Of a DNA stretch of 15,490 nucleotides, positions 4,632 through 5,732 are shown piece after piece (position 1 is the stretch's first letter; every line of letters begins with the position of its first letter). Both the position numbers and the translations under genes were made by a program. The stretch is from a virus (lineage: Duplodnaviria > Heunggongvirae > Uroviricota > Caudoviricetes): the IMG/VR virus record IMGVR_UViG_2740892233_000004. One strand, written 5' to 3'. The notes below the pieces were generated by a model, which was given only the letters and a program-made list of their open reading frames with translations, was not told the origin of the DNA and made no database searches.

Positions 4632-4654
4632 TATTTTTGTTATTCGGAGAATGC

Positions 4655-4879
4655 ATGAAGAAATTATTGGTAACCGTAAAGCCTTTTCAGGGAACAATTC
4701 CGTTCCGTATTTTGCAGCGTGGTCGTGTTCTTGTTGAAGGTTCGTTCAGTGGTAAATGTACGCAATTACACTCCAGGACCTTTCAGGTGAATGCCACGAA
4801 TGAAGAGCTAACCGTTGAGTGTACGATGAATGCCGCTAAATGCCGCATGGTATCCGCTGCATTACAGCCAGTGTGTTGA
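4655..4879 (+). CDS. Hypothetical protein (74 aa, four Cys)
   Basis: GGAG 6 nt upstream of ATG 4655; MKKLLVTVKPFQGTIPFRILQRGRVLVEGSFSGKCTQLHSRTFQVNATNEELTVECTMNAAKCRMVSAALQPVC. No family recognised. Confidence 0.45.
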   Translation: MKKLLVTVKPFQGTIPFRILQRGRVLVEGSFSGKCTQLHSRTFQVNATNEELTVECTMNAAKCRMVSAALQPVC

Positions 4880-5235
4880 GCGACCTTATTATTCATGCGC
4901 GGTATTGTCGCCGTATTCCTGCATTAACAGAGACCGCAGCCCGACCGGGAGAATCCTCTGCGCGAGTGTGCGGGGATAATCAAAAACGATACACACCGGG
5001 GTTTACCGCGTTAACGGAGCGCGGCGTTGTCCCCTCATGGTCGCTGGTCCGGTGCGATGGTGGAAGAAGCCGGATGTTTATCACTATTAATTGATAACAC
5101 AGAAATGGATTCATTGATTTTCAGCACGTTTTTGTATTCGTATTATTGAACATCTGTTTATTTTACTTTTAACATATTGATAATAAAAAGAGCTGTAAAT
5201 CTTTAGATGAGTCGATTTTGTCCGGGGAAGTTCAA

Positions 5236-5376
5236 ATGGATTTTATGCTGACGGTTTCTGGTGTGGTTATCCTGTCCATTGCTTATACTGCAGATAAATA
5301 TGGCTGCCATTTGTTATCACGTATTGGCGCTTATTGCTCGTTGATGCTGATTTTCTCGTCGCTTTTTTTTGAGTAA
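5236..5376 (+). CDS. Hypothetical small hydrophobic protein (46 aa) inside an AT-rich island
   Basis: MDFMLTVSGVVILSIAYTADKYGCHLLSRIGAYCSLMLIFSSLFFE*; two hydrophobic stretches; GGGGAAG upstream; surrounding about 300 bp is visibly AT-rich versus flanks. Confidence 0.3.
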   Translation: MDFMLTVSGVVILSIAYTADKYGCHLLSRIGAYCSLMLIFSSLFFE

Positions 5377-5505
5377 GTTATATTAATTATAACAAATAAT
5401 TTTCTGTGTTTTTTCAGGCTATCCCGTCAGACGGGAAGCCTGTACTGCCGGGGGACGAATGGAAAACTGATGTGTCCGGTAACTGTGTGTTCTGTGAACA
5501 CCATG

Positions 5506-5691
5506 TTACTTAATTATGTAATTCATACCCGAACGCTCTGTTGACAGCCTTCTTCTGCAGGCTTCAATAACCCACGCTGAAAAGTTACCGGAACCTTTAT
5601 GTTCAAGGGCGATATTGATCTGTTCAATCATGTGATTGGGGAAACGGATATTGCGGGTTGTGGTTCTGCGGGTCCGGTTTTTCGATGACAT
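5506..5691 (-). CDS. Small ribbon-helix-helix-like DNA-binding protein (61 aa), opposite strand to the late operon
   Basis: Minus-strand AAAGGAAATAAAT then ATG at 5691; MSSKNRTRRTTTRNIRFPNHMIEQINIALEHKGSGNFSAWVIEACRRRLSTERSGMNYIIK: basic N-terminus, strand then two helices. The ORF-track start at 5751 lacks a ribosome-binding site. Confidence 0.6.
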   Translation of the reverse strand: MSSKNRTRRTTTRNIRFPNHMIEQINIALEHKGSGNFSAWVIEACRRRLSTERSGMNYIIK

Positions 5692-5732
5692 ATTTATTTC
5701 CTTTACTGATTGCCATATGACGGGGATTTTAC

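What the first reader, a model, noticed from the sequence alone, without database searches (positions are those of the whole stretch)
4632..5732. AT-rich island with small ORFs and a divergently oriented RHH gene between the lysis and packaging modules
Between Rz/Rz1 and the HNH-terminase block, where lambdoid phages often carry accessory cargo, there is a 74-aa Cys-containing ORF (4655-4879), an AT-rich stretch of about 300 bp (5095-5400, in contrast to GC-rich flanks) holding a 46-aa two-helix hydrophobic ORF (5236-5376), and a 61-aa ribbon-helix-helix-like gene on the opposite strand (5506-5691) with a good ribosome-binding site. The compositional break and opposite orientation suggest an independently regulated, horizontally acquired cassette. 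A small membrane protein paired with a DNA-binding protein is the layout seen in toxin-antitoxin, exclusion or abortive-infection modules, but none of these ORFs matches a family I can name.
Basis: partly seen in the sequence, partly recalled or inferred. Interest (0 to 1): 0.6.

Follow-up and report, generated by a model that had tools for sequence, protein, structure and literature searches.

The report
Mosaic cargo region before phage packaging genes
The flagged stretch is the ordinary, swap-prone accessory region at the end of a lambda-like prophage's late operon, not a toxin-antitoxin cassette; its DNA-binding gene is a conserved lambdoid gene that lambda itself carries unannotated, and beside it lies a conserved non-coding block that may fold as an RNA.

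Summary
The window is an Stx1a prophage of non-O157 EHEC, 100% identical to E. coli CP027442 over the interval.

The interval is not one acquired cassette. It holds four modules that assort independently:
1. ORF1 (4655-4879), a conserved 74-aa beta-sandwich protein that sits where other phages carry bor.
2. A roughly 185-nt conserved non-coding block (4893-5078), also present in lambda. Its variation fits an RNA structure on the late-transcript strand, and Rfam has no match.
3. The AT-rich island (about 5075-5557), one of at least 8 alternative inserts in a cargo slot. It is found in 734 of 5426 complete E. coli genomes. It carries ORF2, a 46-aa hydrophobic orphan protein (dN/dS 0.28).
4. The RHH gene (5506-5691), which is YlcI/YnfO (DUF3950). 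Its core is nearly invariant. It occurs without the island in lambda, DLP12, Qin and most relatives; only its C-terminal tail belongs to the island.

No defence or toxin-antitoxin model matches, and the RHH gene does not depend on ORF2. The region is therefore ordinary moron cargo. Two by-products are of modest interest: an unannotated conserved RHH gene in lambda, and a candidate structured RNA.

The parts
4173..4631 (+). Rz i-spanin gene, with the embedded Rz1 o-spanin ORF at 4384-4590. This is the left context. The 3' part after about 4506 varies between relatives.
   Evidence: Pfam Phage_lysis, E = 1.4e-39. Annotated as a lysis protein. Similarity to some relatives stops at 4506.
4655..4879 (+). 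ORF1: a 74-aa conserved small protein with an all-beta sandwich fold and no signal peptide. It occupies the slot between Rz and the conserved block, where other phages have bor or nothing.
4893..5078 (+). Conserved GC-rich non-coding block (GCB), a candidate structured RNA on the late-transcript strand. Its edges are sharp, with variable DNA on both sides.
   Evidence: 398 phage records at 76-100% identity. 4088 places in 1577 of 5426 E. coli genomes, with no annotated feature underneath. 1-nt, 9-nt and 17-nt indels exclude coding. Consensus fold on the plus strand is -38.5 kcal/mol with z = -4.6; the minus strand gives z = -1.7. 183 G.U cells against 3 A.C cells. 12 of 41 pairs show compensatory changes, reached by 0 of 500 shuffles. 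A full-length copy lies in lambda at 46865-47036. No Rfam family matches.
5075..5557 (.). AT-rich island: a variable cargo cassette. The left edge is 5075/5081. The right edge is 5537/5557, inside the 3' end of the RHH gene.
   Evidence: Replaced by 42-654 bp of unrelated DNA in relatives. 797 places in 734 of 5426 genomes. It is one of 8 insert classes in the same slot. GC is 0.33-0.39.
5150..5194 (+). A stretch perfectly conserved between the two island types, upstream of ORF2. It contains a promoter-like TTTATT (5157-5162), a 16-nt spacer, and GATAAT (5179-5184). A minus-strand promoter-like site overlaps it at 5199-5171.
   Evidence: 100% identity here in the window-versus-L007 alignment, while the surroundings are about 78% identical. 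The minus-strand site comes from the scan. The plus-strand hexamers were read from the sequence; this is inference only.
5236..5376 (+). ORF2: a 46-aa protein with two hydrophobic segments (residues 3-17 and 30-45) around a polar loop. It is an orphan restricted to E. coli prophages.
   Evidence: Annotated as WP_000347013.1. dN/dS is 0.28 in frame against 0.79 and 0.64 in the other two frames. Intact in 9 of 11 variants. 13 clusters, all E. coli. No relatives outside its own family in an exhaustive HMMER search. No family hit.
5417..5440 (.). GC-rich hairpin between the convergent ORF2 and RHH genes. It has no following U-tract on either strand and is not conserved in the divergent island type.
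   Evidence: Read from the sequence. Not reported as a terminator. The region is only 64% identical to L007.
5506..5691 (-). YlcI/YnfO (DUF3950) ribbon-helix-helix-like gene, 61 aa. Residues 1-48 form the conserved core. The C-terminal tail (encoded at 5506 to about 5550) belongs to the variable cassette.
   Evidence: PF13132, E = 7.9e-20. NF041551. phrog_949. Core dN/dS is 0.019. Tails are hypervariable. AF2 gives an extended N-terminus plus two helices. The weak Foldseek hits include NikR, ParD2, Arc and TCP, which are RHH proteins. Homologues exist in lambda, DLP12 and Qin.
5733..6098 (+). HNH endonuclease of the HK97-type packaging module. This is the right context, divergent from the RHH gene with a 41-bp gap.
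   Evidence: PF01844. phrog_589. Annotation.

Best explanation
The interval is the accessory (moron) region at the downstream end of the lysis cassette of a lambdoid prophage. It is built from four modules that assort independently.

1. **ORF1.** A small beta-sandwich protein gene co-oriented with the late operon. It sits in the slot that holds bor in lambda, phage 21 and 933W-like phages.
2. **Conserved block.** A roughly 185-nt non-coding block that probably folds as an RNA within the late transcript.
3. **AT-rich island.** One of at least eight alternative inserts in a cargo slot. The slot is bounded on the left by the 3' edge of the conserved block and on the right by the conserved core of the RHH gene.
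   - Inferred: cassettes are exchanged by homologous recombination between these two conserved flanks. This would explain why the RHH C-terminal tail changes with the cassette.
   - The island carries a promoter-like sequence and ORF2.
   - Inferred: ORF2 is a small inner-membrane protein made from the prophage. Its cellular role is unknown.
4. **RHH gene.** This is ylcI/ynfO, a conserved lambdoid gene read leftward, against late transcription, from the cos or packaging boundary.
   - Inferred: it is a small ribbon-helix-helix DNA-binding repressor at the head of the leftward accessory transcription unit (ynfO then ydfO in Qin; ylcI, then ybcV and bor in lambda and DLP12). It is not an antitoxin dedicated to ORF2.

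Shown here: the module boundaries, their distribution, family membership and selection signatures. Inferred: expression, DNA binding, membrane location and the recombination route.
For: **Independent assortment.** The combinations seen are Rz, then (none, ORF1 or Bor), then the conserved block, then (slot insert), then the RHH gene, then (HNH plus HK97-type terS, or Nu1).

**Sharp common boundaries.**
- All insert classes diverge right after GGTGGAAGAARCCGGA, at about 5075.
- They rejoin inside the RHH gene at 5537-5557.

**Eight slot classes.** They include a TonB_C-like lipoprotein, DUF1398 and an IS3 element.

**Counts in 5426 E. coli genomes (near-identity matches).**
- Island: 797 places.
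- RHH allele: 1968 places.
- ORF1: 1362 places.
- Conserved block: 4088 places.

**RHH identity and conservation.**. Lambda has an intact 64-aa homologue at 48303..48109 that is not annotated in NC_001416.

**Co-directional neighbours.** ynfO and ydfO are co-directional and 58 bp apart in Qin.

**Expression hint.** ybcW and ylcI are reported as a convergent overlapping transcript pair in K-12 RNA-seq (PMC12288877). That is the same layout as ORF2 and the RHH gene here.

**ORF2 selection.**
Against: - I found no expression data for this locus. The Sakai Ribo-seq supplements contain none of the three peptides.
- The ORF2 coding signal rests on one divergent comparison with 12 synonymous and 13 non-synonymous changes. 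Variable sites by codon position are only 9/7/11. Frameshifted variants exist.
- No shared promoter or operator was found upstream of the RHH gene in the two packaging contexts.
- The RHH fold model is low-confidence (pLDDT 66), and the structural hits are not significant (E = 1.6-8.5).
- The loci used for the mosaic map were mostly retrieved with a motif from the conserved block. Their frequencies are therefore biased towards loci that contain that block.
Confidence: 0.6

Rival explanations
1. One reading: a toxin-antitoxin, exclusion or abortive-infection cassette. ORF2 is the membrane toxin or effector, and the RHH protein is its antitoxin or regulator.
For: - A small hydrophobic protein lies next to an RHH-type protein.
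- RHH domains are common in antitoxins.
- There is a weak PHROG hit to a HicB-like family (E = 0.014).
- ParD2 is among the weak structural hits.
- In the loci examined, the island is always found with an RHH gene beside it.
Against: - The genes are convergent, 129 bp apart, and not co-transcribed.
- The RHH gene occurs without ORF2 in lambda, DLP12, Qin and most relatives: 1968 places against 797.
- The RHH core is under far stronger constraint than ORF2 (dN/dS 0.019 against 0.28).
- PADLOC, Pfam and NCBIfam give no hit for ORF2.
- Other inserts in the same slot encode unrelated cargo.
Confidence: 0.07
2. A type I toxin-antitoxin locus or excludon. ORF2 is a small membrane toxin. It is controlled by an antisense RNA from the minus-strand promoter-like site at 5199-5171, or by the overlapping 3' end of the convergent RHH transcript.
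For: - ORF2 is a small hydrophobic peptide in AT-rich DNA.
- A 45-nt stretch in the ORF2 leader is perfectly conserved.
- A minus-strand promoter-like site lies inside that stretch.
- There is no terminator between the convergent genes.
- The analogous ybcW-ylcI pair is listed as a convergent excludon in K-12.
Against: - No RNA family hit on either strand.
- Promoter-like sites are not more frequent than in shuffles (5 found, 2.6 expected).
- Two short hydrophobic segments are unusual for type I toxins, which typically have one. This point rests on my own knowledge.
- Frameshifted ORF2 variants persist in genomes.
Confidence: 0.1
3. ORF2 is not a gene. The island is non-coding AT-rich filler or regulatory DNA, for example an H-NS-bound spacer or promoter region. 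The open frame persists by chance over a short evolutionary distance.
For: - Variable sites fall 9/7/11 across codon positions.
- There are no homologues outside very close E. coli copies, even in an exhaustive search.
- Several clusters carry frameshifted C-termini.
- The island as a whole is 81% identical between its two types, so the test has little power.
Against: - dN/dS is 0.28 in frame against 0.64-0.79 out of frame.
- The ORF2 stretch varies less than its flanks: 19% variable sites against 25-38%.
- The start codon, the RBS-like GGGGAA and the hydrophobic character are kept in the divergent copy.
Confidence: 0.2
4. For the conserved block only: it is a DNA-level element, not an RNA. 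It could be a conserved homology linker that mediates module exchange, or a protein-binding site near the bor promoter.
For: - It sits exactly at mosaic junctions, with variable DNA on both sides.
- In some phages two copies flank ORF1.
- Single-sequence folding is not exceptional: z = -0.47 for the window copy and -1.52 for the lambda copy.
- The sequences are closely related; the covariance model's effective sequence number is 1.25.
Against: - The strand asymmetry of G.U against A.C is strong: 183 cells against 3.
- Compensatory changes at 12 of 41 pairs exceed all 500 shuffles and all slid controls.
- The consensus fold gives z = -4.6 on the plus strand only.

These patterns are not expected for a duplex DNA site.
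Confidence: 0.3

Closest known systems
YlcI/YnfO family (Pfam DUF3950, PF13132; NCBIfam NF041551): ylcI of cryptic prophage DLP12 and ynfO of Qin in E. coli K-12
   Same: - The window protein passes both curated cut-offs.
- It is 89% identical to YlcI and to the lambda ORF over residues 1-53.
- It has the same position and orientation: the last gene before the small terminase or cos region, read against the late operon.
   Different: - Here the neighbour is an HNH plus HK97-type packaging module rather than Nu1.
- The C-terminal tail (STERSGMNYIIK) is specific to the island-bearing allele.
- The function of the family is untested. A literature search found only annotation mentions.
Lambdoid 'morons' and lysogenic-conversion cargo between Rz and cos (lambda bor, lambdap78/ybcV, lambdap79/ybcW)
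   Same: - Same genomic slot.
- AT-rich, self-contained small gene with its own promoter-like sequence.
- Present or absent among otherwise collinear phages.
   Different: - ORF2 has no sequence relation to Bor, DUF1398 or YbcW.
- No terminator is recognisable after ORF2.
- Expression from the prophage is not shown.
Arc/Mnt/CopG/ParD-type ribbon-helix-helix repressors and antitoxins
   Same: - The predicted layout is a basic N-terminus, a short strand-like RNIRFP segment and two helices.
- Known RHH proteins (NikR, ParD2, Arc, TCP domain) are among the weak Foldseek hits.
   Different: - No significant sequence or structure match: the PDB profile search found 0 hits, and Foldseek gave E of 1.6 or higher.
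- No partner toxin in an operon.
- Dimerisation and DNA binding are untested.
Prophage-encoded regulatory RNAs of EHEC and lambda (AgvB, AsxR, StxS, Pas sRNAs, PreS/LPR2, 6S)
   Same: Like these, the conserved block is a non-coding element of lambdoid prophages that is widespread in pathogenic E. coli.
   Different: - Those RNAs map just downstream of pR' or the stx genes, or in the early left operon. They do not map between the lysis and packaging genes.
- The block matches none of their Rfam models.
- The block has no recognisable promoter or terminator of its own, so it looks like an internal element of the late transcript rather than a separate small RNA.

Membership tests
YlcI/YnfO (DUF3950, PF13132 / NF041551) | Scores above the curated cut-off of the family model | tested here: met
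   PF13132 gives 70.9 bits against a cutoff of 25, E = 7.9e-20. NF041551 gives 35 bits against a cutoff of 30. RefSeq names the identical protein a YlcI/YnfO family protein.
YlcI/YnfO (DUF3950, PF13132 / NF041551) | Synteny: a small gene directly upstream of, and divergent from, the packaging genes of a lambdoid prophage | tested here: met
   This holds in the window (HNH and terS), DLP12 (nohD), Qin (nohA), lambda (cos and Nu1) and dozens of viral contigs.
Ribbon-helix-helix (Arc/MetJ/CopG) DNA-binding fold | Beta-strand, helix, helix topology that forms an intertwined dimer | tested here: inconclusive
   The monomer AF2 model has pLDDT 66, with helices at 19-32 and 34-59 after an extended N-terminus. 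Foldseek hits include RHH proteins, but at E = 1.6-8.5. No dimer model could be run.
Ribbon-helix-helix (Arc/MetJ/CopG) DNA-binding fold | Sequence-specific binding to repeated operator half-sites | not testable with these tools
   No shared repeat was found upstream of the gene in the two packaging contexts. Binding needs EMSA or ChIP.
Type II toxin-antitoxin module with an RHH antitoxin | Toxin and antitoxin genes adjacent, co-oriented and co-transcribed | tested here: not met
   ORF2 (plus strand) and the RHH gene (minus strand) are convergent with a 129-bp gap.
Type II toxin-antitoxin module with an RHH antitoxin | The two genes co-occur as a unit across genomes | tested here: not met
   The RHH gene occurs without ORF2 in lambda, DLP12, Qin and most loci. 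The near-identical RHH allele has 1968 places against 797 for the island.
Type II toxin-antitoxin module with an RHH antitoxin | The toxin belongs to a recognised toxin family, or is toxic when expressed | tested here: not met
   On family membership: no Pfam, NCBIfam, PHROG or PADLOC hit for ORF2, and no distant relatives. Toxicity itself cannot be tested with these tools.
Type I toxin-antitoxin locus | Small hydrophobic toxin ORF plus a cis- or divergently encoded antisense RNA with its own promoter and terminator | tested here: inconclusive
   The hydrophobic ORF is present. One minus-strand promoter-like site lies in the conserved leader. No terminator and no RNA family hit were found. No transcript data.
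Known anti-phage defence systems (PADLOC-DB 2.0) | At least one protein matching a defence-system model | tested here: not met
   No hit for ORF1, ORF2 or the RHH protein at E of 1 or less. Only the neighbouring HNH gene gives generic nuclease hits.
Lambdoid moron (autonomous cargo cassette in the late region) | Discrete insert, present or absent between conserved flanks in otherwise collinear phages | tested here: met
   Boundaries lie at 5075/5081 and 5537/5557. Eight alternative inserts occupy the same slot.
Lambdoid moron (autonomous cargo cassette in the late region) | Own promoter and terminator; expressed from the repressed prophage | tested here: inconclusive
   A conserved promoter-like sequence lies at 5157-5184 (read from the sequence). 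No terminator was found. No expression data.
Rfam RNA families (release 15) | The conserved block 4893-5078 matches a curated covariance model | tested here: not met
   No match at gathering scores. Only chance-level hits appear at E of 5 or less in the window. The lambda, PA2, ev243 and phage 21 copies gave nothing.

The most novel reading that the evidence does not exclude
The roughly 185-nt conserved block (window 4893-5078; lambda 46865-47036, between bor and lambdap78) is a previously undescribed structured RNA element inside the late transcript of lambdoid phages. It has two multi-helix domains. It always lies between the lysis and packaging genes, and it occurs in up to 9 copies per EHEC genome. 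A plausible role is processing or stabilising the long late mRNA at the boundary between lysis and morphogenesis genes. It also acts as the left homology arm for cargo exchange. Separately, lambda encodes a strongly constrained, unannotated RHH protein 200 bp from its right cohesive end.
Probability: 0.45. Interest if true: 0.65.

Novelty: new member of a known kind. Interest (0 to 1): 0.4.

Why it matters
**For the finding as stated, little.**
- It is a typical moron-type cargo cassette in Stx and other lambdoid prophages.
- Its DNA-binding gene belongs to a named, though uncharacterised, family.
- The cassette is common: 734 of 5426 complete E. coli genomes carry it, including O157, O26, O104:H4 and ST131 strains. 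A small membrane protein made from it could therefore matter for lysogen physiology.

**Two wider points.**
- The slot has fixed recombination flanks. This gives a concrete, testable picture of how cargo is swapped at the lysis-packaging boundary.
- Phage lambda carries an unannotated, nearly invariant RHH gene next to cos, and a conserved block whose variation fits an RNA structure. Both can be tested directly in the best-understood phage system.

Tried and rejected
**Known prophage small RNAs.** AgvB, AsxR, StxS, the Pas sRNAs and PreS/LPR2 were considered for the island and the conserved block.
- They map elsewhere, and Rfam finds nothing here.
- PasB could not be excluded by sequence, because the paper's text holds no sequence.

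**Coding potential of the conserved block.**
- Some phage records annotate short CDSs over it on either strand.
- This is rejected because of 1-nt, 9-nt and 17-nt indels and inconsistent frames.

**Fur box.** A Fur-box-like motif follows the block in some classes. It turned out to be the GATAA..ATTATC sequence next to the lambda-type cos site.

**ORF1 as a fragment of a longer protein.**
- The PHROG match covers profile positions 100-172 of 291.
- This is rejected: homologues are consistently about 74 aa, and the AF2 model is a complete, confident domain.

**Other searches that found nothing.**
- Remote homologues of ORF2 by exhaustive HMMER gave only low-complexity noise.
- A PDB profile search with the RHH alignment gave 0 hits.
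- Expression evidence was sought in the EHEC Sakai Ribo-seq supplements by peptide string, with none found.
- A tRNA/tmRNA scan found none.
- A shared operator upstream of the RHH gene across packaging contexts was not found.
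Full report
**Origin and context**

Window 4300-6400 is 100% identical to chromosomes of non-O157 EHEC strains (O26, O111, O103 and others). One example is CP027442, where it lies in an Stx1a prophage. The gene order there is:
- stx1AB
- esterase
- holin
- lysozyme
- Ant-like protein
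- Rz/Rz1
- hypothetical protein (ORF1)
- hypothetical protein (ORF2)
- YlcI/YnfO family protein (minus strand)
- HNH endonuclease
- small and large terminase subunits
- capsid protein

The window as a whole contains 16 runs of 10 N and near-duplicate stretches. The finding interval itself is clean.

**Checking the observation**

- GC in 200-nt windows falls to 0.325-0.39 between 5000 and 5399. The flanks are 0.52-0.605.
- The three ORFs exist and are annotated in RefSeq.
- The flanking genes are Rz (Pfam Phage_lysis, E = 1.4e-39) and an HNH endonuclease.

**The RHH gene**

The 61-aa minus-strand protein belongs to the YlcI/YnfO family.
- DUF3950 (PF13132): 70.9 bits against a cutoff of 25.
- NCBIfam NF041551: 35 bits against a cutoff of 30.
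- phrog_949.
- A database search returned 848 clusters, nearly all from E. coli.

Residues 1-48 are almost invariant. Everything after about residue 49 is hypervariable in both length and sequence. The core dN/dS against a copy from a divergent island is 0.019.

The fold evidence is qualitative only.
- The AF2 monomer model is mediocre (pLDDT 66). It shows an extended basic N-terminus and two helices.
- The weak Foldseek hits include known RHH proteins: TCP domain, NikR, ParD2 and Arc, at E = 1.6-8.5.
- A PDB profile search found nothing.

The gene is not island cargo.
- K-12 carries it as ylcI, next to nohD in DLP12, and as ynfO, next to nohA in Qin.
- Many "hits" in unrelated genomes were lambda spike-in contamination. 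These led to an intact 64-aa homologue in phage lambda at 48303..48109, 199 bp from the right cohesive end. It is not annotated in NC_001416.

A literature search found no functional study of the family. One paper lists ybcW-ylcI as a convergent overlapping transcript pair in K-12 RNA-seq (PMC12288877).

**The AT-rich island**

Comparison with six phage and prophage relatives shows that similarity stops at 5075/5081 and resumes at 5537/5557. The right boundary lies inside the 3' end of the RHH gene. The relatives carry 42, 267 or 654 bp of unrelated DNA in its place.

The island occurs at 797 places in 734 of 5426 complete E. coli genomes. It is nearly always single-copy and at least 95% identical. 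Carriers include O157:H7, O104:H4, O55:H7 and ST131 strains.

It is found next to both HK97-type (HNH) and lambda-type (Nu1) packaging modules.

Across 86 loci, the slot between the conserved block (described below) and the RHH core holds eight insert classes:
- 41-46 bp
- 50 bp
- 245 bp
- this island (456-469 bp)
- about 650 bp encoding a TonB_C-like lipoprotein
- 553-604 bp encoding a DUF1398 protein on the minus strand
- about 900 bp
- an IS3 element

Most classes are AT-rich (GC 0.30-0.43). The shared sharp boundaries point to cassette exchange by homologous recombination between the two conserved flanks. This is inference.

**ORF2**

The 46-aa product has two hydrophobic segments around a polar loop (TADKYGCHLLSR).
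- Family libraries give no hit.
- Word-indexed and exhaustive HMMER searches find only its own E. coli family.

One divergent island type exists, at 81% nucleotide identity. Against it:
- dN/dS is 0.28 in frame, compared with 0.79 and 0.64 in the other two frames.
- The ORF stretch varies less than its flanks: 19% variable sites against 25-38%.
- The start codon, the GGGGAA ribosome-binding sequence and the hydrophobic character are kept.

There is also evidence against a coding role.
- Variable sites fall 9/7/11 across the three codon positions.
- Frameshifted variants exist.

A 45-nt stretch (5150-5194) upstream of ORF2 is perfectly conserved between the two island types. It contains promoter-like hexamers on both strands (and my reading of the sequence). 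No terminator separates ORF2 from the convergent RHH gene. No expression data were found.

**ORF1**

ORF1 belongs to a conserved family of about 74-aa proteins in E. coli and Salmonella prophages: phrog_2571, 66 clusters, 18 invariant positions.
- dN/dS is 0.28.
- AF2 gives a confident all-beta model (pLDDT 90.6).

ORF1 occupies the position between Rz and the conserved block. Other phages have bor there, or nothing. In a few phages ORF1 is flanked by two copies of the block.

**The conserved block (4893-5078)**

This GC-rich stretch is the most conserved part of the interval. It is 95% identical where neighbouring DNA is 64-82% identical.

Distribution:
- About 400 phage records at 76-100% identity, including phage 21, mEp460 and 933W-like phages.
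- 4088 places in 1577 of 5426 E. coli genomes, with up to 9 copies per genome and no annotated feature underneath.
- Always co-oriented with Rz.

Indels of 1, 9 and 17 nt rule out a coding role.

Evidence for an RNA structure on the plus (late-transcript) strand:
- RNAalifold on 41 distinct copies gives a two-domain structure.
- The consensus energy is -38.5 kcal/mol. Column shuffles average -21.5 (z = -4.6, 0 of 100 reach it). The reverse strand gives z = -1.7.
- Paired columns hold 183 G.U cells against 3 A.C cells. 15 pairs are polymorphic between Watson-Crick and G.U, against 2 for A.C.
- A covariance model finds full-length copies in lambda (46865-47036, between bor and lambdap78; 104 bits) and in DLP12.
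- On that broader alignment, 12 of 41 pairs show compensatory changes. The shuffle mean is 4.2, 0 of 500 shuffles reach 12, and slid controls give 0-7.

Caveats:
- The sequences are closely related; the model's effective sequence number is 1.25.
- The second alignment was fitted to the model.
- Single-sequence stability is unremarkable: z = -0.47 for the window copy and -1.52 for the lambda copy.

No Rfam family matches any copy. The prophage small RNAs described in the papers I could read lie elsewhere. In prophages that lack the slot and the RHH gene, the block sits within about 60 bp of the lambda-type cos sequence.

**Synthesis**

The interval is the accessory region between the lysis and packaging modules. 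It consists of independently assorting parts: ORF1, the conserved block, a cargo slot and the conserved RHH gene.

The compositional break marks a genuine cargo cassette, but that cassette includes only the tail of the RHH gene. The layout argues against a dedicated toxin-antitoxin or defence pair: the genes are convergent, the RHH gene is widespread without ORF2, and no defence model matches.

The best-supported functional picture has three parts.
- ORF2 is moron cargo encoding a small membrane protein.
- The RHH protein is a conserved lambdoid repressor-type protein, read leftward from the packaging boundary at the head of the accessory unit. In Qin this unit is ynfO then ydfO, which are co-directional and 58 bp apart. 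In lambda and DLP12 it is ylcI, then ybcV and bor.
- The conserved block is a probable RNA element of the late transcript.

Expression, DNA binding, membrane location and RNA function are all inferred, not shown.

Noticed in passing
L051 (lambda NC_001416) record positions 48303..48109, minus strand: Phage lambda has an intact 64-aa YlcI/YnfO homologue. It is 89% identical to the window protein over residues 1-53 and lies 199 bp from the right cohesive end. The RefSeq record does not annotate it.
   Followed up: yes
window 4893-5078; lambda 46865-47036; DLP12 (L052 3007-3179): A conserved non-coding block whose variation fits a two-domain RNA structure on the late-transcript strand. No Rfam family matches. 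There are up to 9 copies per EHEC genome.
   Followed up: yes
L062, L081, L159 and similar loci, directly after the conserved block: In prophages that lack both the cargo slot and the RHH gene, the conserved block abuts the lambda-type cos region (GATAAC..ATTATC, then ...GGGCGGCGACCT) within about 60 bp. There it is essentially the last element of the packaged chromosome.
   Followed up: partly
window 6189-6316: Five copies of TGTTAAC (extended AAATGTTAAC), arranged as inverted repeats, lie in the 288-bp gap between HNH and the small terminase gene. They are a candidate terS-binding or cos region of this HK97-type packaging module. The count is 5, against 1.27 expected.
   Followed up: partly
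window, whole (N runs at 174, 249, 524, 795, 1614, 2761, 4187, 8211, 8866, 9296, 10109, 10490, 10742, 11155, 11978, 13815): The window has sixteen runs of 10 N. It also has near-duplicate segments of the lysozyme, terminase, protease-capsid and portal genes. It looks like a scaffold or concatenate of variant contigs rather than one continuous genome.
   Followed up: no
window 3443-4158: A P22-type antirepressor gene (P22_AR_N plus ORF11CD3 domains) sits inside the lysis cassette, between the lysozyme and Rz genes. It is followed by an overlapping 49-aa hydrophobic ORF (phrog_4906).
   Followed up: no
L006, L092 and phage 21 (L055 2301-2627): An alternative insert in the same cargo slot encodes a 113-aa lipoprotein (lipobox LVMGC) with a TonB C-terminal-like domain. 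It is on the plus strand.
   Followed up: partly
L010-L050 (genome-contig hits): Many assemblies of unrelated bacteria (Streptomyces, Cohnella, Algoriphagus and others) contain 3.5-kb or 48.5-kb contigs. These are lambda control DNA, that is, sequencing spike-in contamination.
   Followed up: no
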